Shown here piece after piece: positions 4,456 to 21,176 of a stretch of DNA of 60,325 nucleotides; positions within the stretch are counted from its first letter, which is position 1; every line of letters starts with the position of its first letter. Under the pieces are notes generated by a model. It saw only the letters and a list, made by a program, of their open reading frames with translations, was not told the origin of the DNA and did not search any database. Made by a program: the position numbers and the translations under genes. Source of the DNA: Planctomycetia bacterium (GTDB lineage: Bacteria > Planctomycetota > Phycisphaerae > FEN-1346); NCBI GenBank assembly GCA_003170085.1, contig PMZT01000246.1, positions 1-60,325 of the forward strand, in the 5' to 3' direction.

Positions 4456-4538
4456 CGAAATCCAAACACAACCTTAGATAGACAAGCGGCATGATTGACC
4501 GGCTTTGTGCCGGCAGTTTGCCGGCTCGGAATCTCAGA

Positions 4539-4565
4539 ATAGGCCCTATAGGGCCTATAGGACCT
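4539..4565. repeat. 9-bp tandem array ATAGGCCCT ATAGGGCCT ATAGGACCT containing a perfect 18-bp palindrome (4540-4557)
   Basis: TAGGCCCTATAGGGCCTA equals its own reverse complement. It ends 22 nt before the methyltransferase ATG, so it may act as an operator. Confidence 0.85.
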
Positions 4566-4579
4566 GTGCCAGAGGAGGC

Positions 4580-5374: not shown

Positions 5375-5473
5375 CGTACAACCGAGCCCAGGGCTGAGCG
5401 TGATGCGTGCGGGCGGCACGCGCCTCGGTGCCGCTCGCACGCTTCAGCCCGCGAACACGGGATTGAGAAGAAC

Positions 5474-6742: not shown

Positions 6743-6800
6743 CGTGAGCGCTGGATTAGAGACCGACAGAGTATTCGTTAAGGACCAAAGGAGGCAAGAC

Positions 6801-7559
6801 ATGAACCGAGCATGTGGAACCGCTGTTGTGGCGGCACTGCTGCTTGCGCAGGCAGCAGGCGCGGCCGTGATACCGACAATCGGCGGCGACCTCGGGGCGC
6901 AGTCGAAATACGTGTGGCGGGGAGCCGTGTTCAATCCCAGCCCGGTCCTATGGCCGGATGTCTGGGCAACCTGGAACGGGATAACCCTCACCGGCTGGAC
7001 CTCGTTCAACCTCGCCGATAACACCCTTTACAATGACCCGGCGTTCAAGTTCACTGATGTGGACGTATTCCTCGAATACGCCCATACGTTCGGCCGGGTG
7101 ACCGGTACGCTCGGATACGCTCAGTACATGTACCCGGGTTACTTGAGCGCCTTTCCATCAACGGGTGAGGTCTACCTGAAGGGTAAGGCCGACCTGAAAG
7201 TGCTGCAGGCGGGCGTAGCCGCCAATCTGGACGTGATTCACGTGAAGGGGTTGTACGTTTCCCCAAGCCTGTCGCGGTCACTTACGCTGGGCCCGGTCAC
7301 GGGCACGCTGGCGGTGTCGCTCGGCTGGGGCACGGAGAAGCACAACGAGTACTACTACGGGGCCGACAAGGCCGCCCTCACCGACCTGACCGGCGGCTTG
7401 AACATCGCCTGGACTCCGCCCGGCTGCTGCGGTAAGTTCATGACCGTGACCGCCAACGGCGGTTACGCGCAACTGCTGGGCGTCTACACCGAAGGAACTA
7501 AGAGCAACGTCTGGGGCGGGCTGACGCTTAACTTCTTCTACACGCCGGGGAGCAGGTGA
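6801..7559 (+). CDS. outer-membrane beta-barrel protein, TorF/Gcw_chp-like putative porin
   Basis: GGAGG precedes ATG 6801. Signal peptide MNRACGTAVVAALLLAQAAGAA, alternating beta-strand pattern, SKYVWRGAVF...GWTSFNL, and an aromatic-rich C-terminal strand LTLNFFYTP. Confidence 0.5.
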   Translation: MNRACGTAVVAALLLAQAAGAAVIPTIGGDLGAQSKYVWRGAVFNPSPVLWPDVWATWNGITLTGWTSFNLADNTLYNDPAFKFTDVDVFLEYAHTFGRVTGTLGYAQYMYPGYLSAFPSTGEVYLKGKADLKVLQAGVAANLDVIHVKGLYVSPSLSRSLTLGPVTGTLAVSLGWGTEKHNEYYYGADKAALTDLTGGLNIAWTPPGCCGKFMTVTANGGYAQLLGVYTEGTKSNVWGGLTLNFFYTPGSR

Positions 7560-9139: not shown

Positions 9140-9151
9140 CCCTGTAGATAG

Positions 9152-9922
9152 ATGACGCGCACTGCCGGCATCGACATCGGTTCGCGCACGACCAAGGTGG
9201 CCGTGCTCGAAGACGGCCGTCTGGTCCATTCCCGCGTCGTTGACACCGGCACCGACCCGCTCGGCCGGGCCCGCGAACTCCTATCCTCCCTGGCCGCTGA
9301 CCCCCAATCCCAAGTCCCCGTTACCGCCACCGGCTACGGTCGGCACCTGGCACGCGAGCGGCTTGGGTTTCCCGTCATCACCGAGATCAAAGCGCACGCG
9401 CTGGGCGCGGACCGGCTCTTTCCGGAGTGTCGAACCGTCATCGATATCGGCGGCCAGGACTCCAAAGTCATCCGGGTCGAATCGGGTCGGCAGGTTAACT
9501 TCGAGATGAATGACCGGTGCGCGGCCGGCACCGGTCGTTTTCTCGAGGTGATGGCGGCTACGCTCGGCTACACGGTCGGGGAGTTCGGTTTGGAGGCGCT
9601 TGTGGCCCCGGAATCCGTGGCCATCAACTCGATGTGCACGGTCTTCTCCGAATCCGAAGTCATCTCTCTCATCGCTGGCGGAGAGAGTAAGCAGAGCATC
9701 GCGCTGGGCCTGCACGAGTCAATCATCAGTCGGCTCCTGGCGCTGGTCGGTCGGGTCGGGGTCGAATCGCCGGTGGTCCTGACCGGCGGCGTCGCGCGCA
9801 ATCCCTGCATCCGGGCGTTGCTGGAGCGGCGGCTGGGCGTGCCACTGCTGGTGCCGGATGAGCCGCAGATTGTCGGCGCCCTCGGCGCGGCCCTGAGCGC
9901 CGGAAACGGAGCGCGGCCATGA
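9152..9922 (+). CDS. BcrAD/BadFG-family ATPase, HgdC-type activator of 2-hydroxyacyl-CoA dehydratase-like enzymes
   Basis: GIDIGSRTTKVAV, VIDIGGQDSKVI, the cluster ligand motifs NDRCAAGTGRFLE and NSMCTVFSESEVISL, and VLTGGVARN. Confidence 0.85.
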   Translation: MTRTAGIDIGSRTTKVAVLEDGRLVHSRVVDTGTDPLGRARELLSSLAADPQSQVPVTATGYGRHLARERLGFPVITEIKAHALGADRLFPECRTVIDIGGQDSKVIRVESGRQVNFEMNDRCAAGTGRFLEVMAATLGYTVGEFGLEALVAPESVAINSMCTVFSESEVISLIAGGESKQSIALGLHESIISRLLALVGRVGVESPVVLTGGVARNPCIRALLERRLGVPLLVPDEPQIVGALGAALSAGNGARP

Positions 9923-10297: not shown

Positions 10298-12091
10298 ATG
10301 AAGAGTCTGTCAATACTTGTACTGGTCCTGCTCGTCCCGTTGACGCTCTCGGCCAGCCAGCGGGTGATGGTGATTGAGGACGTTACCGCGACCTGGTGCC
10401 AATACTGCCCGGGTGCGGCGCGCGGAATCGAGGAACTCGACTTCCGTTCGTATGACTCAGTAGTCCCGATTGCCTACCACGCGTCGAACAGCGGCGACCC
10501 CTACTATTCGGCCGACGCGGCGGCCCGATTGAGCTACTACTCGATAGGCGGCTACCCGACCGTGGTTCTGGACGGCATCAACAAGATTGTCGGCGGCGAG
10601 CATACGGGCACCATGTACCCGACCTACCTCGCCTACTACAATACCCGCATCGCTGTGGCCAGCCCGTTCACCATCGCGCTTTCCATAACCTATGACACGA
10701 CCGCCCGCACCGGCACCCTGACCATCAAGGTGAAGAATACCAGTTCCGGCTCAGTGACGGCCCAGCTCCAGACCGTGCTGACCGAGAGCCACATCCACTA
10801 CTCGTGGCAGGGAATGGACAGCCTGCAATACGTGGAGCGCAACATGCTGCCCAGTGCCTCGGGCGAGGCGATAACGGTAGCGGCCGGCGACTCGGTGACC
10901 AAGACCCGCGACTTCACGGTTGCCTCCGGCTGGGTGGCAAGCCACTGCGATTTCGTCGTGTTCGCCCAGAACAACTCCACCAAAGAGATAAACCAGGGCG
11001 CGCGCATCGCCATCGTCAACGTCCCGGACTTGCAGTACTACGGCTACCAGCCGGCTGACCCCGTGCCGAACAGCGACGTCGACCTGACCGTGGGGCTGCG
11101 CAACATGGGCACCGGCGAAGGTCAGGACATCGCCGGGACACTCTCGACCACCGACCCGTATGTCACGGTAACGACGCCCAACGCCGGTTTCCCGAACATA
11201 CCGACCGCAGCCAGCGCCTACTCGACCACTCCGTTCGAGATTCACGTGGCGGATAGCTGCCCGAACCCGCACCATGCGACGATGAACTTGCAGGTTACCG
11301 CGACCGGTGCGCCGACCGCCGTCTTGAGCTTCCCGCTGAACGTGACCACGACCTACGGATTCGCGGATAACATGGAACACGGTATCGGTCAGTGGACGCA
11401 CTCAGGAATCAGAGACAACTGGCACCAGTCACACTATTCGTTTCAGTCGGACAGCACAAGCTGGTACTGCGGCGTGGAAGGCAGCCACCAGTATACGAAT
11501 GAGAACGATTCCCGTCTCATGACGCCGCTATTCACTGTGGGCAGCGACACGACGCTGAAGTTCTACGTATACTACGAGATGGGGAACGATATAGGGTATC
11601 TTGAGATAGGTAACGGCTCGGGGTTCTGGTGGCCGCTGATGAGCTACTTCGGATCGAGCTCAGGCTGGTATCAGGAGAATATAGGCCTGGGTGCGTACCG
11701 TGGCCAGACCGTGCAACTCCGCTACCGCTTCATTAGCGACTATAGCGGTACCGCCGAGGGCTGGTACGTTGACGACGTTGAGGCCGGTGCCATCCTCGGG
11801 GTGAGTGAAGATCGGACGCTCGCCGGCTGGCGCGTTGCGCTTTCAGGTAGTCTCGTAAGGACATCGGCCCGCGTGAATTACCAGCTCCCGGTCGGGGTCA
11901 CGGGGAGCCTGTCCGTGTACGACGTGGACGGCCGGCTGGTCCGGCAACTGGGCCGCAACCTCGTCGGTACGGGCCGGATTACCTGGAACCTGACCGACAG
12001 GGCAGGCAACGCGGTCCGGAACGGCACGTACTTCATCCGGCTGGTCTCTGCCTCGGGTGGGGTTACCGGCAAGCTGGTGGTAACCAGATAG
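10298..12091 (+). CDS. secreted thioredoxin-like (single CxxC, Omp28-related-like) protein with a C-terminal T9SS/FlgD-Ig-like sorting domain
   Basis: Signal peptide MKSLSILVLVLLVPLTLSA and CxxC in ATWCQYCPGAARG. The C-terminus LSVYDVDGRLVRQL...GRITWNL...NGTYFIRL...KLVVTR fits the T9SS C-terminal domain pattern. Confidence 0.6.
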   Translation: MKSLSILVLVLLVPLTLSASQRVMVIEDVTATWCQYCPGAARGIEELDFRSYDSVVPIAYHASNSGDPYYSADAAARLSYYSIGGYPTVVLDGINKIVGGEHTGTMYPTYLAYYNTRIAVASPFTIALSITYDTTARTGTLTIKVKNTSSGSVTAQLQTVLTESHIHYSWQGMDSLQYVERNMLPSASGEAITVAAGDSVTKTRDFTVASGWVASHCDFVVFAQNNSTKEINQGARIAIVNVPDLQYYGYQPADPVPNSDVDLTVGLRNMGTGEGQDIAGTLSTTDPYVTVTTPNAGFPNIPTAASAYSTTPFEIHVADSCPNPHHATMNLQVTATGAPTAVLSFPLNVTTTYGFADNMEHGIGQWTHSGIRDNWHQSHYSFQSDSTSWYCGVEGSHQYTNENDSRLMTPLFTVGSDTTLKFYVYYEMGNDIGYLEIGNGSGFWWPLMSYFGSSSGWYQENIGLGAYRGQTVQLRYRFISDYSGTAEGWYVDDVEAGAILGVSEDRTLAGWRVALSGSLVRTSARVNYQLPVGVTGSLSVYDVDGRLVRQLGRNLVGTGRITWNLTDRAGNAVRNGTYFIRLVSASGGVTGKLVVTR

Positions 12092-12102
12092 GCGAGCGGT
12101 CG

Positions 12103-12882
12103 TTGCGCGGCAAGGCACTTTTTCTTGCGAGCCTCGGGGCGCTGGCGGTGTTCGCCGGCTGCTCCGAGGCTCCGGTGTTGGAAATAAAGCCGACCAACCG
12201 GGTCGTGCTGGCCGAGTTCTTCACCTGGATGCGCTGCGGGTACTGCCCGTACGCGGCCCGTGCTCTTGACAGCGTGGCCGCGGACTTCCAGGACAGCTTC
12301 GTGGTGATTGCCTATCACCGGCGCGTGGCCGGTGATACGCTCAGTCCGGAATACGTCGAGAATCGAAAGACGTTCTACTACGCCACCAACGGTGAACCGG
12401 CCACCGTCTTCGACGGCGGGGAGGTGGTCTGGACGCCCGGGCCGGAGTACAACTACTCGACTTTTCACGGCAGGACCGTGGTCGCCCGGAATGTTCCGCC
12501 CGGTGCCCAGTTGTCAATGGCCGCTGCGCTTTCCGACAGCGACGGCACGATTACCGTCTCGGCCACCGGAGTAACTTCGACACCGACCGAAAGCCTGAGG
12601 TTGTTCATCGTGATTGTCGAAGACAGCGTCCACGCGTATCTGCCCGGGGCATACGATTCGATATTCCGGCATGTGATGAGGCAAATGCTGCCGGATGAGA
12701 AAGGGACTCCGGTCAGCCTGGTTGCGGGTGACACGGTCGTCGTGGAGAGACAGTTCCAGCTCAAGCCGTTCTGGAACCGACCCATGCTGGGCGCGGTCAC
12801 CTTCGTTCAGGACATGAGGACGCACGAAATCCTGCAGACCGCCTGTCTCAGCAGAATCGAACCGCAAAGGAGATTCCGATGA
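12103..12882 (+). CDS. lipoprotein, thioredoxin-like CxxC paralogue of the preceding gene
   Basis: TTG start, lipobox LAVFAGC, and CxxC in WMRCGYCPYAARA. The layout parallels the N-terminal half of 10298-12091. Confidence 0.55.
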   Translation: MRGKALFLASLGALAVFAGCSEAPVLEIKPTNRVVLAEFFTWMRCGYCPYAARALDSVAADFQDSFVVIAYHRRVAGDTLSPEYVENRKTFYYATNGEPATVFDGGEVVWTPGPEYNYSTFHGRTVVARNVPPGAQLSMAAALSDSDGTITVSATGVTSTPTESLRLFIVIVEDSVHAYLPGAYDSIFRHVMRQMLPDEKGTPVSLVAGDTVVVERQFQLKPFWNRPMLGAVTFVQDMRTHEILQTACLSRIEPQRRFR

Positions 12883-13625
12883 CCAACAAACCGACCCCCG
12901 GCCGCCTTTGGTTCCTTATGCCCGTTTTGTCCATCTCCCTCCTCCTCCTCGCCGGTCGGGCGCTGGCCGGCTACGGGTTCACCTTCGCGCCGCGCGGGGA
13001 CACGGTCCAGCACGTCGACCCAAGCGGGACTGGCGTATTCCTATTCACCCTCACCAACACAGGCACAGCGAGCGACATCTACCGCTTCGATTGCCGCCTG
13101 CTCGACAGCGTACCAGGATGGGTCGTTGTATACTGCGTTCACGGGCGGTGCGAAGAGCCCGGGGCAACGGCGTACGACACGGTACTGGCCGGGGCCAGCG
13201 ACACCACACCGGACGTCACGGTCTACACCACCACGACCCAGGGCGAAGAGGTCGTATGCCTCCGGGTGCGTTCAATGGGTGACTCGGCGACTGCCGAGTC
13301 CGTCGCAGTCCACACCATCGTCGGTTCCGGCATCGACGAGGACGCACGTCTGGATGCGCCGGAGGCCCGTTTCCGGGTGGCGCCGACGTTGGTGAGTCGG
13401 CAGACCGGAGCATTGGTCGTTTTCTCGACGCGGGAGCAGACTCGCTTCAGGGTGACGCTGTACGACGCAGCCGGGCGGTTGGTCCAGACCATCGCGTGCA
13501 ATGCTGTGTCGGCGGGACGACACCGCATTCGCTGGCAGCCGGAACGCGGCCTGCCCGACGGCGTTTACCTGCTCCACCTGTCGGCGGGAGACGAATCGGC
13601 AGTTACCAAGGTGATTGTCGAATAG
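12879..13625 (+). CDS. secreted hypothetical protein with T9SS-type C-terminal domain
   Basis: ATGA overlap with the upstream gene and AAAGGAG RBS. There is a signal/TM segment, and the C-terminus VTLYDAAGRLVQTI...HRIRWQP...DGVYLLHL...TKVIVE. Confidence 0.55.
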   Translation: MTNKPTPGRLWFLMPVLSISLLLLAGRALAGYGFTFAPRGDTVQHVDPSGTGVFLFTLTNTGTASDIYRFDCRLLDSVPGWVVVYCVHGRCEEPGATAYDTVLAGASDTTPDVTVYTTTTQGEEVVCLRVRSMGDSATAESVAVHTIVGSGIDEDARLDAPEARFRVAPTLVSRQTGALVVFSTREQTRFRVTLYDAAGRLVQTIACNAVSAGRHRIRWQPERGLPDGVYLLHLSAGDESAVTKVIVE

Positions 13626-13708
13626 CCGGCTGAAGGTCAGGATACGACGGTGAGTTGCCCCGACGGCGCCAGGGCTCGGTTTCTGTTGCCCGGGGCCGCT
13701 TACAGAAT

Positions 13709-14425
13709 ATGATGAAAGGAATGTCCAGCAAAGACCCGTTGGCCTCAGCGGCCCCAGTCGGACTGTACGCTCAGCTCGCCGAGGCGGTGACGACGATGAA
13801 GCCGGAGCTCGTAGCCGAACTGGCGCGCAAGGTACTGGAACAGGGCTTGTCGCCCGAGGACGCCATGACGCAGGGTCTTGCCGCCGGCATGCGCCGGATG
13901 GGCGAGAAGTTCACGGCCAAGCAGTGTTTCGTGCCCGAAGTACTCCTCGCTTCCAAGGCGATGTACGCCGGGTTCGACATCCTGAAAGAGCATGTGACCG
14001 GCCCGGGTCGCACGCGGGGCAGGGTCATCTTGGGCGTGGTGCAGGGTGACATCCACGACATCGGCAAGAACATCGTGAAGGTGATGGTACAGGCCGCCGG
14101 ATTCGAGGTGATTGACCTCGGGCGGAACGTGCCGTTGCCGGAGTTCGCGAGGGCGGTCGAGTCGGACTTGTCCGACCGGTCGGATGGGTCAGACCGCAGC
14201 CTGGTGCTGGGCATGTCCTCGCTGATGACCACCACGATGCCGCGGATGGGCAAGGTCATCGATTTGCTGGACAAGGCCGGCTTGCGCAAGCAGGTCAAGG
14301 TGATAGTCGGCGGAGCACCGGTGACCACCGGTTTCGCCCAAGGCATCGGCGCGGACGGGTTCGCACCGGACGCACACTCGGCTGTGCTCGAAATCGAGCG
14401 GCTGGCAGGGCAAGGTAGCAGGTAG
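13709..14425 (+). CDS. methyltransferase cognate corrinoid protein (B12-binding, MtaC/MtbC/MtsB-like)
   Basis: N-terminal helical cap (LVAELARKVLEQGLSPEDAM), the DxHDxG motif in GVVQGDIHDIGKNIV, MSSLMTTTM and VIVGGAP. It carries an odd SDLSDRSDGSDRS insertion. Confidence 0.85.
   Translation: MMKGMSSKDPLASAAPVGLYAQLAEAVTTMKPELVAELARKVLEQGLSPEDAMTQGLAAGMRRMGEKFTAKQCFVPEVLLASKAMYAGFDILKEHVTGPGRTRGRVILGVVQGDIHDIGKNIVKVMVQAAGFEVIDLGRNVPLPEFARAVESDLSDRSDGSDRSLVLGMSSLMTTTMPRMGKVIDLLDKAGLRKQVKVIVGGAPVTTGFAQGIGADGFAPDAHSAVLEIERLAGQGSR
14162..14197. repeat. 9-bp in-frame tandem array (TCGGACTTG TCCGACCGG TCGGATGGG TCAGACCGC) inside the corrinoid-protein CDS
   Basis: Read directly. It encodes (SDx)4 = SDLSDRSDGSDR. 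Confidence 0.8.
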
Positions 14426-14448
14426 GAGTTAGCAGTTAGGAGTGAGTC
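14414..14448. repeat. 7-bp tandem array GGTAGCA GGTAGGA GTTAGCA GTTAGGA GTGAGTC between corrinoid protein and methyltransferase
   Basis: Read directly. It contains TAG/TGA triplets in all three frames, including the corrinoid-protein stop at 14423-14425. Confidence 0.85.
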
Positions 14449-14506
14449 GGACAGGAGCGGGCGGTTTGCTGCGCTGCTGCGCGGCGAGAAGCCGGAACGG
14501 CCGGTC

Positions 14507-15442
14507 GTGTTTCCGATGGTTGTGGCGAATCATGCGGCGCGGCTTGAGGGCTACTCAATCTCAGAGGCCGTGACACAGCCTGACGTGCTGGCGCGGGTGC
14601 TATACTCCGCGTACCGGTTCTATGGCTACGACCTCGTCATGGTTTTCTCGGACACAATGGTCGAAGCCGAGGCCATGGGCGCGCAGGTGCTGATTCCCGA
14701 AGACGACGACCCGTTTCTTCTCGAACCGCCGCGCGTTTCCAAGCTTGAGCCGGCCAATCCTGAGACCGACGGCAGGATGCCGGTCATTCTCGCTGCGACG
14801 CGCCGGCTCAAGGCTCTCCTTGAAGACGAAGTGCCGATTCTGACTTCGCTGAAGGGACCGTTTTCACTGGCTTCCTTCCTGCGCGGGATGGACGGCTTCC
14901 TTGAAGACCTGCTCAGCGACCCGCGCCGGGCAAGGGAGTTCCTGCGGCTCGCGACCGAGAACCAGGTTGTCTATGCCGAGGCAATCGTCAAGGCCGGCGG
15001 GATTCCCTTCATCGGCGACCCGGTTGCGTCCGGCAGCCTGATAAGCCCGGAGATGTTCCGCGAGTTCGCATTGCCTTATCTGGCACAACTGGTTCGTTCG
15101 GTTCACCAGCGGGGCGTGAAGGCCGGACTGCACATCTGCGGTGAGTCGAAGAGCATCCTCAGGGACATGGTTGCCACCGAGGCTGATTTCCTCAGCATTG
15201 ACGTGATGGACCTGGGCGTGGCACGTTGTGAGGTCGGCGACAATCCGGTCTTGATGGGCAATGTCTCAACCGGGTTGCTGCTTGAAGGTAAGCCGGACCA
15301 GGTAGCGGCGGCAGCCACGGAGTGTCTTGCGCGCGGCGGGCCGAGGCTTGTACTCTCTTCAAGCTGTGACGTGCCAGCCGGCGCGCCGAAAGAGAACGTG
15401 AAGGCCCTGGTCGAGGCGGGCAGGAAGTGGGAGGCAGCCTGA
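14507..15442 (+). CDS. URO-D-fold MtaA/MtbA/MtsA-like methylcobamide methyltransferase (Zn type)
   Basis: Zn motif H-x-C in GLHICGES plus SSSCDVPAGAP, and IGDPVASGSLISPEMF. 14507 (GTG) is the first canonical start. Homology to the MtaA N-terminus (RFAALLRGEKPERPVV, compare RLLAALKGEPVDKVPV) extends upstream to about 14460 in the same frame. Confidence 0.8.
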   Translation: MFPMVVANHAARLEGYSISEAVTQPDVLARVLYSAYRFYGYDLVMVFSDTMVEAEAMGAQVLIPEDDDPFLLEPPRVSKLEPANPETDGRMPVILAATRRLKALLEDEVPILTSLKGPFSLASFLRGMDGFLEDLLSDPRRAREFLRLATENQVVYAEAIVKAGGIPFIGDPVASGSLISPEMFREFALPYLAQLVRSVHQRGVKAGLHICGESKSILRDMVATEADFLSIDVMDLGVARCEVGDNPVLMGNVSTGLLLEGKPDQVAAAATECLARGGPRLVLSSSCDVPAGAPKENVKALVEAGRKWEAA

Positions 15443-16839
15443 CGGTCACGGTGGCCCCGCGGGGCACTCACAGCCTGCGCGAGTCGCTTGTCGAGGCCGG
15501 CGTCAGCCTGCCGTCGGACTGCGGTGGTGTTGGTACATGCGGCAAGTGCAGGGTCCGTGTGCTCGATGCCGACGGCGAACGGAGCGTTCTCGCCTGCCAG
15601 TATGTGCCGGCGGTGCCGACCGCGGTGTTGCTGGAGCCGGTTCGGTCCGCGCACCGGCGCGGCCCCGGCCGACCCGGGCCGGGCGCTTCCGGAACCCTGC
15701 GCCTTGCGGCTGACATCGGAACGACCACGATTTCCCTGGCCGCGGTGGACGAGAAGCAGCGCCGGGTCGTGGCGAGACAGGAAACGCTCAACCCGCAAGT
15801 CATCTACGGAGCCGACGTGGTGAGCAGGATTGCGGCGGAAGACAAGGTCAGCCGGGCGGGGCTTGATCGCGTACTGCTGCGGTTCATGGCCGATGCCGGC
15901 ATCGCGAGCGAGCGCCCGGTCGTGGCCGTGGGCAACACGGTAATGGCTCACTTCCTCATGGGTCGGAGCCCGGCATCGCTGGGTGAGTTTCCCTACGAGT
16001 CGCGGCTGCCGTTGAGCAAGAGCCTTACCAGTCAGCATGGCGGCATCTGGACGCACATGCTGCCGCTGCTCGGCAGCTTCGTCGGCTCAGACTGCACCGC
16101 GGCGATTCTCGCTTCGGGCATGCACCGGAGTCGCCGTCTCTCCCTGCTGGTGGACGCCGGGACCAACGGCGAGGTCGTGCTCGGCAACCGCGGGCGACTG
16201 CTCGTGACCTCGACCGCGGCCGGGCCGGCATTTGAGGGCGCGACCCTGGCGTGCGGCAGTCTGGCACAGCGCGGGGCGGTGAGAGCGGCGCGGCTTGGGG
16301 ACGGGCGATTCGTCCTTGACGTCATCGGCGGCGGAGAGCCGAGGAGTATCTGCGGTTCGGGCGTGCTTGACGCGGTGGCCGAGGCAACCCGCGCCGGGCT
16401 GGTCGATGCTTCAGGCAGGATTGGCCGGGACTCGCCGCTCAACCTCAACGACGGTCCGGAGGCGGTCTACCTGTCTCAGGCCGACTTGCGCGAGGTGCAA
16501 CTGGCCAAGGGCGCAATCGCCGCGGCAATCAGGATTCTACTGGCCGAGTGGGGCGCAGTGGCGTCCGACCTCGAATGCGTCCATGTTACAGGCAAGTTCG
16601 GGGCGGCGATGAACCCGGCTTCAGCGGTGCGAATCGGCCTGCTGCCGCAGATGCCGCTCACCCGAGTCCGGCGCCACGGCAATTTGGCTCTGCTCGGCGC
16701 CGTGCGGGCCACGCTGAACCCGGGCCTGTTCGTCGAGGCCGAGCGTTTCGCGGAGAACTGCCGCGAGGTAATGTTGAGCAGCCACCCGCAGTTCGAACAG
16801 ACTTTTGTTGATTCGATGCGACTTGAACCATGGAACTGA
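15427..16839 (+). CDS. RACo/RamA-type reductive activator of corrinoid proteins ([2Fe-2S] ferredoxin domain plus ASKHA ATPase)
   Basis: N-terminal plant-type ferredoxin motif DCGGVGTCGKCRVRV...C. ASKHA motifs AADIGTTTI, LLVDAGTNGEVVLG, STAAGPAFEG and CGSGVLD. It overlaps the upstream gene by 16 nt. Confidence 0.85.
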   Translation: MGGSLTVTVAPRGTHSLRESLVEAGVSLPSDCGGVGTCGKCRVRVLDADGERSVLACQYVPAVPTAVLLEPVRSAHRRGPGRPGPGASGTLRLAADIGTTTISLAAVDEKQRRVVARQETLNPQVIYGADVVSRIAAEDKVSRAGLDRVLLRFMADAGIASERPVVAVGNTVMAHFLMGRSPASLGEFPYESRLPLSKSLTSQHGGIWTHMLPLLGSFVGSDCTAAILASGMHRSRRLSLLVDAGTNGEVVLGNRGRLLVTSTAAGPAFEGATLACGSLAQRGAVRAARLGDGRFVLDVIGGGEPRSICGSGVLDAVAEATRAGLVDASGRIGRDSPLNLNDGPEAVYLSQADLREVQLAKGAIAAAIRILLAEWGAVASDLECVHVTGKFGAAMNPASAVRIGLLPQMPLTRVRRHGNLALLGAVRATLNPGLFVEAERFAENCREVMLSSHPQFEQTFVDSMRLEPWN

Positions 16840-17942
16840 TACCCCGCGCGACGTTTCGGCAAATACGGCAGGAACGGGTCGAGGAGATAGCCTCGGCGCG
16901 CAAGCAGGGCGCAAGGGTAGTGGGTTACTTCTGCATCTACTCGCCGGTCGAGCTGGTGCAGGCAGCCGGGGCGATCCCGGTCCGACTGATGCGCGGCGGA
17001 CAGGCGGCCGAGGAGGCAGGGGAAAAGTACCTGCGGGCCGACGCCTGTTCTTTCTGCAATAGCTGCATGGGAAACTTCGAGCGCGACCAGTTGTACCAGC
17101 AGGTTGATGCCGTGCTCAGCGTAAACACGTGCGACATGATGCGCCGGTTGCCCGAGTCGATAGAGAGGCACTTCGGCATCCCCGTATACCAGTTATACAT
17201 GCCGCGGACGTCCGAGCCGCTGCCGCACCGCGTGGCCGAGTTCAGACGGCAGCTTGACGGATTGGCCGGAGAACTGGCAACCCTGACTGGCAGCGCCATC
17301 GGTACGGAGCGACTGGAATCCGAGATTGCCGCATTCAACCGGTTGCGGGAGATGCTGCGGCAGGCAAGCGATACGCGACGGATGAACGCGCCGTTGCTTT
17401 CCGGTGGCACGATGCTCGACTTGGCAACGACCACATGGCTGCTCGGTCCGGTCAAGGCCGTCTCGCTCATTGAGGAGGTGCTGCGGATTCTCGCCGCCCG
17501 GCCTCGCCGGGAATCGCGTCGGCCGCGGCTGATGCTCGGCGGCAGCATCCTGACTGAGGATGATCGGTGGCTGCTAGACATGGTCGAGGAGAAGGCGGAC
17601 ATCGTGACCGACATCCTTTGCACGGGTACGCGCTGGTTTGCCGAGGATGCTCCGTCGGACGGCGCGCCGCTGGATCGGCTGGCGCGGTTCTACTTCAGCC
17701 GGCCGTGCATGCACCGCCGGCCGAACTCGGCGATGTACGAGTACGCGCAGAAACTCGCCCGTGAGTTCCGGGTTGAGGGGTTTGTGTACAAGACGCTGCT
17801 CTACTGCGACCCGTGGAGTTTCGAGGTGAGGCGGCTGCAGGAAGCGCTCGGCCTGCCGGTGCTGCACCTCGATACTGATTACTCGACCGAGAACCGCGAG
17901 CAGGTGCGCACGCGGGTCGAGGCTTTCCTGGAGACGCTATGA
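16830..17942 (+). CDS. 2-hydroxyacyl-CoA dehydratase/benzoyl-CoA reductase family subunit (HgdB/BcrC-like)
   Basis: ARVVGYFCIYSPVELVQAAGAIPVRL, NTCDMMRR, and the C-terminal DTDYSTENREQVRTRVEAFLETL. It overlaps both neighbours by 10 nt and 4 nt. Confidence 0.8.
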   Translation: MELIPRATFRQIRQERVEEIASARKQGARVVGYFCIYSPVELVQAAGAIPVRLMRGGQAAEEAGEKYLRADACSFCNSCMGNFERDQLYQQVDAVLSVNTCDMMRRLPESIERHFGIPVYQLYMPRTSEPLPHRVAEFRRQLDGLAGELATLTGSAIGTERLESEIAAFNRLREMLRQASDTRRMNAPLLSGGTMLDLATTTWLLGPVKAVSLIEEVLRILAARPRRESRRPRLMLGGSILTEDDRWLLDMVEEKADIVTDILCTGTRWFAEDAPSDGAPLDRLARFYFSRPCMHRRPNSAMYEYAQKLAREFRVEGFVYKTLLYCDPWSFEVRRLQEALGLPVLHLDTDYSTENREQVRTRVEAFLETL

Positions 17943-19357
17943 GTGAGCGGAGTCTGACCAGTCAGGCAGGTCGGACGAGTCCGACCCCGGGTTGGGCTGA
18001 CCCGAAGCCGGCGCGGGTCACATTTGACGAGTGGCAGGACCTGTTCGAACGGGTGCCGGAAGAACTGGTTGAGGAGTACCACTACTTCCCGCCCAATCGT
18101 GAAGCGTTCTCAAAGTACCTGTTTCCACCCCAGACGTTTGCCATCTACGGCATGCGGCACCTGCGCCGCCTCAAGTATGACAACTCGCTCGCGGCCCTGC
18201 GCATGTGGGGGTTTGTCCAGAACGAAACCGAGCGGCTGTTCCGGGCGCGGCAGCTTGGGCGCCGGGTCATCGCGACGATGGGCGACCTCGGCGCGGTGCC
18301 GGTCATCGTCAACTCATTTCCGGACTGCATCGCGTTCTACCCGGACTGCATCTGGTGGACCCCGTTCGCGATGGAGAGCCGGGTGCTGTTCGACGCGGCG
18401 GCCGAACTCGGCATCGGCGACGCCACCTGCTTCTCCCGCGCCGCCCTTGGCGCATTCGCCAAGCACTCGTATTTCCCGGACCCGGACCTCGTGATTGCCT
18501 CGACCGGCGCATCGTGCGACGATTACTCGGGGGTGGAGCAACTGGTTGAGCGGTTTGCGCCGGACATGATGTGGGTCGAAGAACCAATGAGATGTGACAT
18601 GGGACGAATGGGACCCATGGGACCTATGCTCGTCAAGGAGTACGAACGGGTGGTCGAGCGGATGGAGAAGCTGACCGGACACGAGATAACTGACGATGAG
18701 TTGCGCGCGGGCGTGCGCCAGGCCAACCGAGTGCGGAAACTGGTGAAGCGGCTGCGGGAGCTGGCGTTCCGCGAGGGCGCGATGGCATCGTTGGAGATGA
18801 TGGTCGTCGAGTTCGGCAACCTGCATCATTACTCGGACATCACCGAGTGGCCGCACGTGCTGGAACACTTGCTCGCAACCGCGGAAAGCCGCGCGGCAGC
18901 GGACACGCCGGTTGTTGACAAGGATGCGCTACGCGTCGTTTGGGTCACGCCGCCGGCGGACCCTCTGCTGCTAACCTATGTTGAGGACGCGGGAGCGCGC
19001 GTGGTCGGTACTGAGTACGTCATCAATCAGGCACTTGAGATAATAGACGAGGACAAGCCGCCGCTTGAGGCGATTGCCGAGTCGTTCATGGCCGCGTCGC
19101 TCATAGGCACGTCGAAAGCAAGGGCGCAGTCGGCAATCGACCAGGCACGCGAATACCGGGCGGAGGGCGTCATCATTTCCGGCATCTTCGGCGGGTCGCA
19201 CTGCGCCATGGAGGGCAGGCTCATCTCCGACTACGTGAAGGCCGCGCTCGACCTGCCGGTGCTCGAGTTCGATGTCACGTCGCCGTCCCGGGAGATTGCA
19301 CTCCAGATTGGTACGCGGATAGATGCTTTCCTCGAAGTGCTCCGGAGCCGACGATGA
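17939..19357 (+). CDS. 2-hydroxyacyl-CoA dehydratase/benzoyl-CoA reductase family subunit (HgdA/BcrB-like)
   Basis: 472 aa. RRVIATMGDLGAVPVIV, TCFSRAALG, ASCDDY, and the C-terminal FDVTSPSREIALQIGTRIDAFLEVL. It contains the MGRMGPMGPM repeat insertion. Confidence 0.8.
   Translation: MSERSLTSQAGRTSPTPGWADPKPARVTFDEWQDLFERVPEELVEEYHYFPPNREAFSKYLFPPQTFAIYGMRHLRRLKYDNSLAALRMWGFVQNETERLFRARQLGRRVIATMGDLGAVPVIVNSFPDCIAFYPDCIWWTPFAMESRVLFDAAAELGIGDATCFSRAALGAFAKHSYFPDPDLVIASTGASCDDYSGVEQLVERFAPDMMWVEEPMRCDMGRMGPMGPMLVKEYERVVERMEKLTGHEITDDELRAGVRQANRVRKLVKRLRELAFREGAMASLEMMVVEFGNLHHYSDITEWPHVLEHLLATAESRAAADTPVVDKDALRVVWVTPPADPLLLTYVEDAGARVVGTEYVINQALEIIDEDKPPLEAIAESFMAASLIGTSKARAQSAIDQAREYRAEGVIISGIFGGSHCAMEGRLISDYVKAALDLPVLEFDVTSPSREIALQIGTRIDAFLEVLRSRR
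18599..18628. repeat. 9-bp in-frame tandem array ATGGGACGA ATGGGACCC ATGGGACCT (ATG) inside the HgdA-like CDS
   Basis: Read directly; it encodes MGRMGPMGPM. The unit differs by 1 nt from the intergenic 9-mer ATAGGACCT at 4557-4565. Confidence 0.8.
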
Positions 19358-20406
19358 AGGAACTGCTCACGCCGAGGGAACGTTTCGGCCTGCTGGTGAT
19401 TGATGAGCCGCAGGACCGGGTGCCGGTGTTCCCGCTGGTTACCGCGCACGCGGCGCGGGTCGCCCGGATACCGATTCGGGACTACTATACCGACGGCATT
19501 GCAATGGCCCGCAGCCAACTGGCGGCGCAGGAGTTCTACGGCACCGACTTCATCTCGTTCTTCTCCGAGGTCGGGCTCGTGGCCGAAGCGCTGGGTTCCC
19601 GGTTCAGCTACCCTGATGACGACCTGCCGCTGCTGGCCGAGCCGAAATGGAGTGAATTGGGCGAGTTGGACGATGCGACGGCCGACCCGATGAAGGACGG
19701 ACGCCTGAGAGTGTACCTCGACGCGATATCTTACGCCTACGAGGCGCGGGCCGACACGGTTCCGATTCTCGCCTACGTCCCGGCGCCCTTCACAACTGCC
19801 CAGCAGCTCGTGGACCAGGAAGCATTCCTGCTCGGGCTGCTAACCGAACCGGAGCGGATCCACCGTTTGCTCGAGTACGCGACATGTTCAATCATCCGAT
19901 TCTGCCGCGCCATCATCGGCGCGGGCGGGTTGCCGATTCTGGTTGACCCGCTGGCCTCAGGGAGCGTGATATCGGCGGAGCACTACCGCGAGTTCGCGCT
20001 GCCCTGCGAGGCGGAGGTCATCCGCTACCTTCACCGCTACGACCTCGACATCGTGCTCCACATCTGCGGCGACACCAACCCTATCATCCACATCATGCCG
20101 GAATCCGGAGCCGACCTGCTGAGCCTTGACCACGTTGGCCTGGAAACCGCGATTGCCGCGGCGGGAGACCGGTGCCGTATCATCGGCAACTTCGACACGA
20201 CTGCCATCATGCTGTCGAAGCCACAGGAGGTCGCGGACTCGGTTGCCGCGATGGTGCTGGCAGGAAAGCCGTGTCCAAGGGGATTTGTGGCTGCCACAGG
20301 ATGCGAGGTGCCGGTCGAGACGCCGCCGGAGAACGTGCGGGCGTTTGTTCGAGCCGCGAAAGAGGCTGGCGCCAATGCCGACTGGGGCGCGAGGAGGAGA
20401 GCGTGA
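19354..20406 (+). CDS. second URO-D-fold MtaA-like methyltransferase (Zn type)
   Basis: RERFGLLVIDEPQDRVPVFPLV (MtaA-type N-terminus), VDPLASGSVISAEHYREF, and Zn motif VLHICGDT plus ATGCEVPVETPPENV. ATGA overlap with the upstream gene. Confidence 0.8.
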   Translation: MKELLTPRERFGLLVIDEPQDRVPVFPLVTAHAARVARIPIRDYYTDGIAMARSQLAAQEFYGTDFISFFSEVGLVAEALGSRFSYPDDDLPLLAEPKWSELGELDDATADPMKDGRLRVYLDAISYAYEARADTVPILAYVPAPFTTAQQLVDQEAFLLGLLTEPERIHRLLEYATCSIIRFCRAIIGAGGLPILVDPLASGSVISAEHYREFALPCEAEVIRYLHRYDLDIVLHICGDTNPIIHIMPESGADLLSLDHVGLETAIAAAGDRCRIIGNFDTTAIMLSKPQEVADSVAAMVLAGKPCPRGFVAATGCEVPVETPPENVRAFVRAAKEAGANADWGARRRA

Positions 20407-21176
20407 TAACTGCCGGGATAGACGTGGGTTCGGTGAATACCAAGTTGGTCGTGTTTGACCACATCAGTCAAGGGATATTCTGCGAGAAGGTCGTACCGAC
20501 CGGGCCGAGGCCGCGGGAGACGGCGCGGCGGGTGATGGCCGAGTGCCGCAGCGAGCACAAGGACCTTGCCGGCCACGTGCGCGGCGTCGTGGCGACCGGC
20601 TATGCCCGTCACGTTGTGGACGACGTCGAAGGAACAATCACCGAAATCAAGGCTGCGGCACTCGGCATCCGGAACTGGCACCCGGAGGCCCGGACCGTGG
20701 TGGACATCGGCGGGCAGGACTCGAAGGTGCTCAATCTCGACGAGTCGGGTAAGGTTCGCGACTTCGTGATGAACGACCGGTGCGCGGCCGGCACCGGCCA
20801 GTTCCTTTCTGTGCTGGCGCGGACGCTCTCGGTGCCGCTTGAGGACTTCGGCCGGCTGAGCCTCGAGTCGCGGCGGCCGGTCCCGGTTTCAAGCCTCTGC
20901 GTGGTGATGGCCGAGTCGGAGATACTGTCGTTGCTCGCGGCCGACACCCCGGTCGCGGACGTGATTGCCGGCCTGCACGAGGCACTGGCTCGCAGAATTG
21001 CCAACATGGCGGCGCGGCTGCGGGTTCAGCCGGAGGTTGTGTTCACGGGCGGCGTGGCGCAAAATCTCGGGATGAAGGCGGCGCTGGAAAGGGCGCTGGG
21101 TGTGCCGGTAACCATTGCCAGAAAACCGCTGCTGGCCGCGGCACTGGGCGCGGCGCTGGCTAGCGAACGAGAGTGA
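20403..21176 (+). CDS. second BcrAD/BadFG-family HgdC-type activator ATPase
   Basis: GTG start overlaps the upstream stop (GTGA). GIDVGSVNTKLVV, VVDIGGQDSKVL, NDRCAAGTGQFLS, SSLCVVMAESEILSL and VFTGGVAQN. Confidence 0.85.
   Translation: MITAGIDVGSVNTKLVVFDHISQGIFCEKVVPTGPRPRETARRVMAECRSEHKDLAGHVRGVVATGYARHVVDDVEGTITEIKAAALGIRNWHPEARTVVDIGGQDSKVLNLDESGKVRDFVMNDRCAAGTGQFLSVLARTLSVPLEDFGRLSLESRRPVPVSSLCVVMAESEILSLLAADTPVADVIAGLHEALARRIANMAARLRVQPEVVFTGGVAQNLGMKAALERALGVPVTIARKPLLAAALGAALASERE

What the first reader, a model, noticed from the sequence alone, without database searches (positions are those of the whole stretch)
14414..14510. Corrinoid protein and MtaA-like methyltransferase share one reading frame, separated by a single in-frame TAG inside a heptamer array; the conserved methyltransferase N-terminus has no start codon
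- The corrinoid-protein stop TAG (14423-14425) is in the same frame as the methyltransferase ORF (14507 - 14423 = 84).
- Reading on from the TAG gives ELAVRSESDRSGRFAALLRGEKPERPVVFPMVV.
- RFAALLRGEKPERPVV matches the conserved MtaA N-terminus (M. barkeri MtaA: RLLAALKGEPVDKVPV).
- Codons 14426-14506 contain no ATG, GTG or TTG. Initiation at GTG 14507 would therefore delete a conserved segment.
- Possible explanations: a natural corrinoid-protein::methyltransferase fusion interrupted by a nonsense change or sequencing error; stop-codon read-through yielding both a short and a fused product; or non-canonical initiation.
- The TAG sits in the 7-bp array GGTAGCA GGTAGGA GTTAGCA GTTAGGA GTGAGTC. 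Because 7 mod 3 = 1, that array places stop triplets in all three frames.
Basis: seen in the sequence. Interest (0 to 1): 0.65.

Follow-up and report, generated by a model that had tools for sequence, protein, structure and literature searches.

The report
Methyltransferase gene lacking a normal start codon
In an uncultured WOR-3 bacterium from peat, a working methyltransferase gene sits just after a corrinoid-protein gene with no normal start codon, and at least 15 distinct related sequences share this, so the cell must start or continue translation there in an unusual, still unproven way.

Summary
The corrinoid gene's TAG (14423-25) is in frame with the MtaA-like (URO-D family) ORF. Codons 14426-14506 hold no ATG/GTG/TTG. 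Homology to MtaA starts at about 14456-14462.

Three independent peat metagenomes assemble the junction identically. Fifteen distinct related WOR-3 sequences carry the same start-less junction. Their genes are intact and under purifying selection (dN/dS 0.07-0.15).

It is not a broken fusion. All close orthologues are separate genes, most with ATG, GTG, TTG or CTG starts, and true fusions appear only at 35% identity or less.

The in-frame TAG is not essential. Three start-less relatives (L064, L032, L089) have the corrinoid stop out of frame and remain intact; the two full-length ones are under purifying selection.

The invariant feature is AGGAG/AGGGG, then 5-6 nt, then GTT/GTC, then exactly four codons, then the conserved Asp codon. 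Sister alleles have GTG, ATG, CTG or TTG at that same codon.

Best explanation (about 45%): a separate cistron starts non-canonically at GTT 14435, probably coupled to termination at the adjacent TAG. Rivals are TAG read-through making a minor fusion (about 20%) and downstream starts giving a truncated enzyme (about 20%).

The evidence is comparative only; proteomics or reporter assays are needed.

The parts
13709..14425 (+). Corrinoid (B12-binding) protein gene. The start is probably ATG 13709 (TTG 13655 is the first in-frame start). The stop is TAG 14423-14425. It has the DxHxxG motif (GDIHDIG).
   Evidence: Pfam B12-binding and B12-binding_2; NCBIfam pyl_corrinoid/MtbC-like, below curated cut-offs. 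ORF. Metatranscriptome contigs at 100% identity over 13700-14382.
14414..14448 (+). Imperfect heptamer array GGTAGCA GGTAGGA GTTAGCA GTTAGGA GTGAGTC. It holds TAGs in all three frames and two AGGAG Shine-Dalgarno-like motifs.
   Evidence: Arrays of the same kind, with different unit types and copy numbers, sit at this junction in 23 related loci and almost nowhere else in 519 kb.
14423..14425 (+). Corrinoid stop codon TAG. It is in frame with the downstream ORF and is also the first three bases of TAGGAG.
   Evidence: The homologous TAG lies at D-27 in frame 0 in 12 of 15 distinct start-less sequences. It is out of frame in L064 and L032, and in L089 a different TAG ends the corrinoid ORF and this position reads CAG.
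14424..14428 (+). SD1: AGGAG, 6 nt upstream of GTT 14435.
   Evidence: An SD (AGGAG or AGGGG) lies 6 nt (5 nt in L032) upstream of the GTY codon in all 15 distinct start-less sequences. The same geometry precedes the GTG or ATG start in sister alleles.
14435..14437 (+). GTT, the proposed non-canonical initiation codon (position 'c4', D-15).
   Evidence: At this aligned position, always four codons before the conserved Asp codon, related loci have GTG (7), ATG (1), CTG (3 to 5), TTG (2), GTT (13) or GTC (2).
14438..14444 (+). Second AGGAG (14438-42), overlapping an out-of-frame GTG (14442-44). AGT 14441-43 occupies the position of the ATG start in L001/L002-type alleles.
   Evidence: This unit and the offset GTG are absent from start-less L064 and L089, and L032 lacks the offset GTG, so they are not essential.
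14450..15442 (+). Conserved body of the MtaA-like (URO-D superfamily) corrinoid methyltransferase, from Asp (GAC 14450) to TGA 15440-42. The ORF is open from 14426.
   Evidence: Pfam URO-D, 6.9e-75, full length. 4AY7 MtaA, 5.6e-33, with HxC...C zinc ligands aligned. Orthologues 50-93% identical. dN/dS 0.08. RNA contigs over 14513-15431.
14462..14495 (+). GC-rich hairpin (-20.6 kcal/mol) over the F-A-A-L-L-R-G-E-K-P codons. The CTG CTG pair (14474-14479) lies in its loop and stem.
   Evidence: It recurs in related loci because the codons are conserved. No covariation was shown.
14507..14509 (+). First canonical in-frame start (GTG); the next is ATG 14516. A start here would remove about 19-22 conserved N-terminal residues.
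15427..16839 (+). RACo/RamA-type corrinoid reductive activase (2Fe-2S ferredoxin + ASKHA domain). It overlaps the methyltransferase stop by 16 nt.
16830..19357 (+). Two HGD-D/double-cubane-type proteins (16830-17942 and 17939-19357).
   Evidence: Syntenic in orthologous loci.
19354..21176 (+). Second MtaA-like URO-D protein (19354-20406), followed by a BcrAD/BadFG-type ATPase (about 20400-21176).
   Evidence: Synteny.

Best explanation
The corrinoid protein and the MtaA-like methyltransferase are two separate cistrons, as in all close orthologues.

In this allele, the codon at the homologous start position is GTT (14435-14437). Sister alleles have GTG, ATG, CTG or TTG there. The codon lies 6 nt downstream of a conserved AGGAG (14424-14428). 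Translation of the methyltransferase most likely begins at or next to this GTT by non-canonical, inefficient initiation. Ribosomes terminating at the corrinoid TAG, which forms part of the same TAGGAG motif, probably help. The result would be a low methyltransferase-to-corrinoid-protein ratio.

On this reading, the in-frame relation of the TAG to the methyltransferase ORF follows from the register of the TAGGAG Shine-Dalgarno motif and the heptamer array. It is not a functional requirement.

Shown: the sequence is real; the allele is conserved and under selection; the SD/GTY/frame geometry is invariant; the frame to the corrinoid gene is dispensable.

Inferred: GTT itself is the initiating codon; coupling contributes; the output is low.
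For: 1. The sequence is real. It is identical in three independent runs, and both genes are transcribed.
2. Fifteen distinct start-less sequences come from independent metagenomes and MAGs. All URO-D ORFs that reach their stop are intact at 329-330 aa. dN/dS is 0.065-0.15 against dS of 0.3-1.1.
3. The invariant geometry is SD + 6 nt (5 nt in L032) + GTT/GTC + exactly 4 variable codons + GAC. Alleles with the same SD spacing have GTG or ATG at this position, and CTG and TTG alleles share the codon position.
4. The indels seen in the variants spare the GTY-to-Asp frame but break the corrinoid-to-Asp frame. L064 has +1 nt in the corrinoid tail, L032 has -1 nt between the SD and GTT, and L089 uses a different TAG in frame 2. 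L064 and L089 keep dN/dS of about 0.07.
5. L023 carries a 108-nt insertion downstream of GTT that is in frame and stop-free.
6. The first 21 nt of the spacer are 93% identical, against 65% at third codon positions of the gene. That indicates an RNA-level signal such as a ribosome-binding site.
7. The DRSRRFAA codons show 7 synonymous against 2 non-synonymous variants (P = 0.0009), so translation covers them.
8. In E. coli the native initiator weakly recognises GUU (10.64898/2025.12.21.695813). Non-near-cognate codons initiate at about 0.01-0.2% of AUG (10.1101/063800). Unrecycled post-termination ribosomes restart at non-canonical codons just downstream of a stop (PMC2268962).
9. Control: none of 30 other genes in the window needs a non-canonical start.
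Against: - GUU and GUC are two mismatches from AUG and are not established natural start codons in bacteria. By E. coli standards the output would be 1,000- to 10,000-fold below AUG.
- A single T-to-G change would give a canonical GTG, yet none of the 15 sequences has it. This needs selection for weak initiation, which is unproven.
- There is no protein-level or ribosome-level evidence. RNA contigs do not span 14383-14512.
- The synonymous/non-synonymous signal could partly be imported by recombination with canonical-start alleles, since junction types are interspersed on the tree.
- Twelve of 15 start-less sequences do keep the TAG in frame, against 3 of 25 canonical ones. This would also fit read-through.
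Confidence: 0.45

Rival explanations
1. Stop-codon read-through, or a short ribosomal hop over the TAG. Most ribosomes terminate and make free corrinoid protein. A minority decode or bypass TAG 14423 and continue in frame, making a corrinoid-methyltransferase fusion of about 62 kDa, which would be the only source of methyltransferase activity.
For: - The TAG is in frame in 12 of 15 distinct start-less sequences, against 3 of 25 canonical-start ones (Fisher 2.7e-5 if treated as independent).
- Corrinoid tail lengths differ among start-less loci (4, 6 or 8 residues) in multiples of three.
- The TAG is never replaced by a sense codon in frame or by another stop.
- Natural fusions with the same domain order exist and are collinear across the junction. 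P0091 is 34% identical with a linker only 10 aa shorter. MtsD/F/H are fused corrinoid/methyltransfer proteins (PMC10762971).
- The last corrinoid codon (AGG or AGT) recurs 15-18 nt downstream in frame, as a hop would need.
Against: - L064, L032 and L089 are start-less but have the corrinoid stop out of frame. The two with full-length ORFs keep them intact, with dN/dS of about 0.07. L089's junction is old and diverged.
- The frame-0 loci share one allele, so the association is one or a few events and not 12.
- The spacer is conserved at all three codon positions, which is unlike a linker peptide.
- No suppressor tRNA, pyl gene or RNA structure was found in the window.
- TAG is a normal, frequent stop here (12 of about 45 genes).
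Confidence: 0.2
2. Initiation further downstream, at CTG 14474/14477 (TTG or ATG in some relatives) or at GTG 14507/ATG 14516. This would give an enzyme lacking 11-25 N-terminal residues, and the upstream conserved codons would be a relic.
For: - Gene callers chose these starts for about a dozen database entries (320-322 aa).
- CTG is a usable weak start in E. coli and sits at the start position in the A2 alleles L015, L029 and L027.
- Purine-rich AGGAGCAGGCGG lies 9-12 nt upstream of the Leu-Leu codons.
Against: - The DRSRRFAA codons upstream show 7 synonymous against 2 non-synonymous variants in start-less loci (P = 0.0009).
- Canonical codons at the Leu-Leu position are not enriched in start-less loci (5/11 against 14/24).
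- The CTG pair is buried in a -20.6 kcal/mol hairpin.
- The lost segment aligns with structured residues 16-33 of MtaA 4AY7.
- There are no indels in the 12 nt between GTY and Asp in the 15 sequences.
Confidence: 0.2
3. Initiation at the out-of-frame GTG 14442 (TTG in L009), followed by a -1/+2 frame correction.
For: A GTG or TTG at this +1 offset is present in 12 of the 15 distinct start-less sequences. Relative to L001/L002 it can be read as 'ATG to GTG plus a 1-nt deletion'.
Against: - It is absent from L064, L089 and L032.
- There is no slippery sequence.
- The SD abuts the codon with zero spacing.
- Frame 0 is the selected frame from at least codon 4 of DRSRRFAA.
Confidence: 0.03
4. Assembly or sequencing error, or a recently inactivated pseudogene.
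For: A single contig with a repeat array at the critical spot could in principle be mis-assembled.
Against: - There are zero differences in three independent runs.
- The same state occurs in 15 distinct sequences.
- The full-length ORFs are intact, with dN/dS of about 0.07-0.15.
- The gene is transcribed.
Confidence: 0.02
5. The TAG is recoded as pyrrolysine or another amino acid.
For: The corrinoid protein belongs to the family that partners the Pyl-containing methylamine methyltransferases (TIGR02370). In-frame TAG is the Pyl signature.
Against: - There are no pylSBCD, tRNA-Pyl or MttB/MtbB/MtmB genes in 60 kb.
- TAG ends about a quarter of the genes.
- The TAG lies in a linker, not in a catalytic site.
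- The out-of-frame relatives argue against it.
Confidence: 0.02

Closest known systems
Weak non-canonical start codons used to set expression (for example AUU of infC and rare CUG starts in E. coli; own knowledge, with quantification in 10.1101/063800)
   Same: A Shine-Dalgarno motif at normal spacing is followed by a codon that pairs poorly with initiator tRNA. The state is conserved, and sister alleles carry canonical codons at the same place.
   Different: Known natural cases differ from AUG at one position. GUU and GUC differ at two, and in E. coli they reach only about 0.01-0.2% of AUG. No N-terminal evidence exists here.
Translational coupling by termination-reinitiation (PMC6728339, PMC10666635, PMC2268962)
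   Same: The upstream stop lies 5-19 nt before the proposed restart site and overlaps the SD (TAGGAG). The genes encode partners of one enzyme system.
   Different: Classical coupling uses overlapping or adjacent canonical starts (ATGA, TGATG) and needs fMet-tRNA, IF2 and IF3. Restart at non-canonical codons has been described mainly when ribosome recycling fails (PMC2268962).
Fused corrinoid/methyltransferase proteins: MtsD/MtsF/MtsH of Methanosarcina acetivorans (PMC10762971) and bacterial fusions such as P0091 (Desulfospira joergensenii)
   Same: The domain order is the same (B12-binding_2, B12-binding, URO-D), and the alignment is collinear across the junction. A read-through product would look like these.
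   Different: Those are single uninterrupted ORFs and only 35% identical or less. Here a TAG is conserved, and all close orthologues are two genes.
Pyrrolysine-encoding in-frame UAG in methylamine methyltransferase genes
   Same: An in-frame TAG occurs inside a corrinoid-dependent methyl-transfer gene set.
   Different: There, the UAG lies inside the substrate methyltransferase and needs pylTSBCD. Here it lies between two genes, no pyl genes were seen, and the frame is not conserved in all relatives.
mlp gene clusters (corrinoid protein + Ram/RACE activase + several MtaA-like 'Mlp' proteins, no H4folate methylase; PMC10418091)
   Same: The operon content is a corrinoid protein, a RACo-type activase and two MtaA-like URO-D proteins, with no pterin methyltransferase.
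   Different: This WOR-3 operon also encodes two HGD-D/double-cubane-type proteins and a BcrAD/BadFG ATPase. Membership of the Mlp1/2/3 clades was not tested. That paper does not describe start-less junctions.
Heptanucleotide-repeat phase variation (own knowledge)
   Same: The array has a 7-nt unit, so each unit gained or lost shifts the frame by one. Unit type and copy number differ between close relatives (for example L001 against L040).
   Different: The units are imperfect. No within-population length variation was seen in contigs. The array lies between genes, not inside one.

Membership tests
MtaA/CmuA-type corrinoid methyltransferase (URO-D superfamily) | Full-length URO-D (TIM-barrel) domain | tested here: met
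   Pfam PF01208, 6.9e-75, profile positions 5-346 of 346.
MtaA/CmuA-type corrinoid methyltransferase (URO-D superfamily) | Score above the curated cut-off of the MtaA/CmuA subfamily model | tested here: not met
   TIGR01463 scores 187 bits against a cut-off of 235.4. NF004889 scores 206.6 against 244. It is related to the family but falls outside the curated subfamilies.
MtaA/CmuA-type corrinoid methyltransferase (URO-D superfamily) | Zinc ligands H-x-C … C aligned with MtaA | tested here: met
   LHICG and SSSCD align with LHICG and APGCG of 4AY7. That these residues are the zinc ligands is from my own knowledge of MtaA.
Methyltransferase-cognate corrinoid protein | B12-binding_2 cap + Rossmann B12-binding domain with DxHxxG | tested here: met
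   PF02607 and PF02310. GDIHDIG is present in the translation. TIGR02370 scores 180.8, below its cut-off of 215.3.
Fused corrinoid-methyltransferase protein (MtsD/F/H-like) | Both domains in one uninterrupted ORF | tested here: not met
   The TAG at 14423 is conserved. No fusion exists among orthologues above 35% identity.
Programmed stop-codon read-through | The downstream ORF is kept in frame with the upstream ORF across relatives | tested here: inconclusive
   The frame is kept in 12 of 15 distinct start-less sequences. The three exceptions have no frame-0 link to the corrinoid ORF, and the two full-length ones are under purifying selection.
Programmed stop-codon read-through | A read-through product exists | not testable with these tools
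   This needs proteomics or a reporter assay.
Pyrrolysine recoding | pylT/pylS/pylBCD present, with UAG inside a methylamine methyltransferase | tested here: not met
   None is present in the 60-kb window. The rest of the genome is not available.
Non-canonical translation initiation | An SD at functional spacing from a conserved codon that is in frame with the conserved protein | tested here: met
   AGGAG or AGGGG lies 5-6 nt before GTY in all 15 distinct start-less sequences, and the GTY-to-Asp distance is always four codons.
Non-canonical translation initiation | The protein N-terminus maps to that codon | not testable with these tools
   This needs N-terminal proteomics, toeprinting or a reporter assay.
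Termination-reinitiation coupling | The upstream stop lies within a few nucleotides of the downstream start | tested here: met
   The corrinoid TAG lies 9 nt (window), 2 nt (L089), 8 nt (L032) or 16 nt (L064) before GTY. Dependence of downstream translation on upstream translation was not tested.
Type 1 mlp gene cluster (PMC10418091) | Corrinoid protein + Ram/RACE + at least two Mlps from the Mlp2 and Mlp3 clades | not tested
   The gene content is compatible, but clade assignment of the two URO-D proteins was not done.

The most novel reading that the evidence does not exclude
A bacterial lineage maintains, over deep divergence (dS up to about 1), a functional gene whose only initiation signal is a Shine-Dalgarno motif followed by a valine codon (GUU or GUC). 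Translation would then start either by genuine initiation at a doubly mismatched codon or by restart of post-termination ribosomes from the adjacent corrinoid gene without a canonical start. This would be a natural, selected way of setting a very low enzyme-to-carrier ratio within one operon.
Probability: 0.4. Interest if true: 0.8.

Novelty: new variant of a known kind. Interest (0 to 1): 0.6.

Why it matters
Gene finders and most models of bacterial translation assume ATG, GTG or TTG starts. Here a clearly functional, conserved and transcribed gene has none in the right place. Annotation pipelines therefore truncate it: database entries of 311-322 aa lack a conserved N-terminal segment.

If the start is a GUU/GUC codon, or a termination-coupled restart, it would be a natural example of something so far seen mainly as background in E. 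coli reporters or in recycling-defective mutants. It would also show how operon stoichiometry can be tuned through the quality of the start codon.

If instead the TAG is leaky, the locus would be a snapshot of two partner proteins being joined into a fusion of a kind that exists elsewhere (MtsD/F/H).

The junction is also an evolutionary hot spot. At least six start architectures (ATG, GTG, TTG, CTG, GTY and an insertion-bearing form) alternate among close relatives, built from 7-nt units whose gain or loss shifts the frame by one.

Tried and rejected
- **Sequencing or assembly error.** Rejected: three independent runs are identical, and 15 distinct sequences share the state.
- **Ancestral fusion broken by a nonsense mutation.** Rejected: about 90 close orthologues are all stand-alone proteins of 320-344 aa, and fusions are 35% identical or less.
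- **Organism-wide odd start-codon usage or TAG reassignment.** Rejected for the window: 30 other genes have canonical starts upstream of their Pfam domains, and TAG ends about a quarter of the genes at sensible C-termini.
- **Pyrrolysine.** No pyl or MttB genes and no tRNA-Pyl were found in the window.
- **Out-of-frame GTG 14442 plus a frameshift.** There is no slippery site, and the GTG is missing in L064, L089 and L032.
- **Downstream CTG/TTG/ATG start.** Canonical codons are not enriched there in start-less loci, the site is buried in a hairpin, and the upstream codons evolve as coding sequence.
- **A conserved RNA structure in the spacer acting as a recoding signal.** Single-sequence folds of 11 loci gave no common structure involving the spacer, only the coding-region hairpin. 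I did not build a covariance model.
- **The array as a genome-wide intergenic cassette.** It occurs only at this junction in the window and in 519 kb of loci. One X4 contig with unrelated flanks was not followed up.
- **RNA evidence for co-transcription across the junction.** Metatranscriptome contigs cover both genes but not 14383-14512.
- **Data limits.** Two look-ups returned no DNA because the sample files were too large. The WOR-3/corrinoid literature search found nothing specific.
Full report
**1.

The corrinoid-protein ORF ends with TAG at 14423-14425. The first canonical start of the downstream URO-D/MtaA-like ORF is GTG 14507, which is 84 nt later and in the same frame. The 27 intervening codons read ELAVRSESDRSGRFAALLRGEKPERPV and contain no ATG, GTG or TTG, only CTG at 14474 and 14477.

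The TAG lies in an imperfect 7-nt array, GGTAGCA GGTAGGA GTTAGCA GTTAGGA GTGAGTC (TRF period 7, 3.9 copies). Its four TAGs fall in all three frames.

A start-free run of 27 codons (P about 0.35) and being in frame (1/3) are unremarkable on their own. What is remarkable is that homology runs through the start-free stretch. The Pfam URO-D match begins at residue 13 of the extension. The solved MtaA structure 4AY7 aligns from residue 11, with SGRFAALLRGEKPERPVV against KTRLLAALKGEPVDKVPV.

**2. It is not an error**

Contigs from three independent peat metagenomes (2018, 2020, 2025) cover 14384-14534 with no differences. Metatranscriptome contigs match both genes at 100% identity (13700-14382 and 14513-15431), although none spans the junction.

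**3. Context**

The window (65% GC) comes from an uncultured candidate-division WOR-3 bacterium (names attached to hits). The operon encodes:

- a corrinoid protein;
- the URO-D-type methyltransferase in question;
- a RACo/RamA-type reductive activase;
- two HGD-D/double-cubane-type proteins;
- a second URO-D-type methyltransferase;
- a BcrAD/BadFG ATPase.

The operon is syntenic in related contigs. It resembles the 'mlp' clusters of corrinoid protein, activase and MtaA-like proteins that lack an H4folate methylase (PMC10418091), with extra reductase-like genes.

**4. Orthologues are separate genes**

I searched with the conceptual read-through product. About 90 close relatives (50-93% identity) came back, all stand-alone URO-D proteins of 320-344 aa. 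Fused corrinoid-URO-D proteins appear only at 35% identity or less.

Orthologue N-termini read MGQDRSRRFAALLRGE…, MESERSRRF…, (GTG)GSGQDR… and (TTG)NPLSSDR…. So the conserved DRSRRFAAL segment is normally translated from a canonical start a few codons upstream.

**5. The start-less state is shared**

I retrieved junction DNA from about 60 related loci. Fifteen distinct sequences lack any in-frame ATG/GTG/TTG between the upstream in-frame stop (or far upstream) and DRSRRF, apart from a TTG directly abutting the SD in L004 and L060. They are: the window, L004, L040, L005, L060, L061, L009, L014, L028, L025, L088, L043=L068, L064, L089 and L032.

They come from different samples and MAGs, including GTDB representatives CAIVTL01, JAPLUO01, JAFGRF01 and CAZQZR01, and NCBI GCA_036705545.1.

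- All URO-D ORFs that reach their stop on the contig are intact at 329-330 aa from the Asp codon.
- Pairwise dN/dS to nearest neighbours is 0.065-0.15, with dS of 0.3-1.1.
- The first 21 nt of the spacer (TAGGAGTTAGCAGTTAGGAGT) are 93% identical across these loci. Third codon positions of the gene are 65% identical.

The spacer is therefore a selected RNA or DNA signal, not debris.

**6. Junction types alternate among close relatives**

On a URO-D tree the start-less type appears in at least four places, interspersed with ATG, GTG, TTG and CTG types. L001/L008 have an ATG start behind five TAGGGGN units. They sit inside the window's own clade.

The corrinoid gene confirms this independently. 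L001 shares a clade-specific SDLSDRSD… insert with the window, L005 and L040. The arrays differ in unit type and number, and each 7-nt unit shifts the frame by one. The junction is thus a rapidly remodelled hot spot.

**7. Read-through or initiation?**

In favour of read-through:

- In 12 of the 15 start-less sequences the corrinoid TAG is in frame, at 27 nt before the Asp codon. Only 3 of 25 canonical-start loci are in frame.
- A natural Desulfospira fusion is collinear across the junction.

Against read-through:

- Those 12 share one allele, so they are not independent events.
- Three variants break the frame. L064 has a 1-nt insertion in the corrinoid tail, giving a stop 7 nt earlier in frame 1. 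L032 has a 1-nt deletion between the SD and GTT, putting the stop in frame 2. L089 ends the corrinoid ORF at another TAG in frame 2 and has CAG where the others have the in-frame TAG.
- L064 and L089 still show dN/dS of about 0.07. L089's junction is old and diverged.

What never varies is this geometry: an SD (AGGAG or AGGGG), then 6 nt (5 nt in L032), then GTT (13 sequences) or GTC (2), then exactly four variable codons, then GAC.

At that same aligned codon, other alleles have GTG (7), ATG (L042), CTG (L015, L029, L027) or TTG (L013, L017). The GTG and ATG alleles share the same SD spacing. Every indel seen in the start-less family spares the GTY-to-Asp frame. L023 even carries a 108-nt insertion downstream of GTT that is in frame and stop-free.

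Within start-less loci the DRSRRFAA codons show 7 synonymous against 2 non-synonymous variants (P = 0.0009). Translation therefore covers them. This argues against the downstream starts, as do two further points:

- Canonical codons are not enriched at the Leu-Leu position in start-less loci (5/11 against 14/24).
- The CTG pair sits in a -20.6 kcal/mol hairpin.

**8. Mechanism proposed**

The methyltransferase is a separate cistron whose start position carries GTT (14435-37), 6 nt after AGGAG (14424-28). Initiation there would be weak. In E. coli the native initiator 'weakly recognises' GUU (10.64898/2025.12.21.695813), and non-near-cognate codons give about 0.01-0.2% of AUG (10.1101/063800).

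Ribosomes terminating at the TAG embedded in the same TAGGAG could raise this. Unrecycled post-termination ribosomes are known to restart at non-canonical codons just downstream of a stop (PMC2268962).

The in-frame TAG then follows from the register of TAGGAG relative to the start codon. The GTG-type alleles also have an in-frame TAG four codons upstream of their start, yet their corrinoid ORF ends at a different TAG.

The geometry, conservation, selection and dispensability of the corrinoid frame are shown. That GTT is the initiating codon, that coupling helps and that output is low are all inferred. I put this explanation at about 0.45, read-through or hopping at 0.2, downstream initiation at 0.2, and the rest at small values.

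**9. Controls**

- None of 30 other genes in the window has a Pfam domain beginning upstream of its first canonical start.
- TAG is an ordinary stop.
- The window has no pyl or MttB genes and only a tRNA-Ser.
- The period-7 TAG array is confined to this junction.

**10. Verdict**

This is a real, conserved and transcribed gene without a canonical start. 'Non-canonical initiation' is favoured over 'read-through', but only protein-level data can decide.

It is a new variant of known phenomena (weak or non-canonical starts, translational coupling) with an unusually extreme codon. It is also a practical warning that databases hold N-terminally truncated models of this protein.

Noticed in passing
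L001 680-732 and L008 (same junction); compare window 14414-14448: In the closest ATG-type relatives the intergenic array is five TAGGGGN units (GATAGGGGTTAGGGGCTAGGGGTTAGGGGATAGGG ATG). This is telomere-like, with five G4 tracts 3 nt apart, so it could form an RNA G-quadruplex over the ribosome-binding site.
   Followed up: no
window 14162-14200: The corrinoid protein carries a low-complexity insert (SDLSDRSDGSDRS) inside the B12-binding domain. It is shared only with the window's own clade (L005, L040, L001; shorter in L061 and L043) and absent from other orthologues and from the Desulfospira fusion.
   Followed up: partly
window 14412-14443 against a contig of run X4 (record 9): A 253-nt metagenome contig matches only the 32-nt array (2 mismatches) and has unrelated flanks on both sides. 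The array may therefore also occur at another locus or in another organism.
   Followed up: no
L023 391-525: One relative has a 108-nt insertion between the SD-GTT unit and the AGGAGT-xxx-xxx-GAC unit. It contains a long C-rich/G-rich inverted repeat (CCCTCCCCCT…GGGGGAGGG), is in frame and stop-free, and carries an in-frame GTG.
   Followed up: partly
window 14424-14458: Four GGA motifs (TAGGAG, TTAGGAG, TCGGAC, CAGGAGC) lie within 35 nt around the ribosome-binding region. This resembles the multi-GGA sites bound by CsrA/RsmA-type translational repressors. It is an idea only.
   Followed up: no
window 4505-9922: A second, partly parallel gene set lies upstream: a SAM-dependent methyltransferase, an HGD-D protein, an unknown ORF, a sodium:solute symporter and another BcrAD/BadFG ATPase. 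In some relatives the SAM methyltransferase directly precedes the corrinoid gene (L087, L089).
   Followed up: no
window 35974-37122: This is a third, more divergent URO-D-family ORF. The Pfam match covers only the C-terminal half (7e-12).
   Followed up: no
window 10298-13625: Three consecutive genes lie just upstream of the operon and are syntenic in L002. At least the first and third encode secreted proteins with FlgD-Ig/Por_Secre_tail (T9SS-type) C-terminal domains. The first two have Omp28-like domains.
   Followed up: no
L015/L018, L029, L027 (junction): A further allele class has CTG at the start position, behind GGGG-type SD motifs, and ACC or ACG where other alleles have ATG. CTG therefore seems to serve as a start codon for this gene in some lineages.
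   Followed up: partly
window 14462-14495: A strong hairpin (-20.6 kcal/mol) is formed by the GCY GCG CTG CTG CGC GGC codons of the conserved FAALLRGE segment. It is present in all related loci examined. Its role, if any, is unknown.
   Followed up: partly
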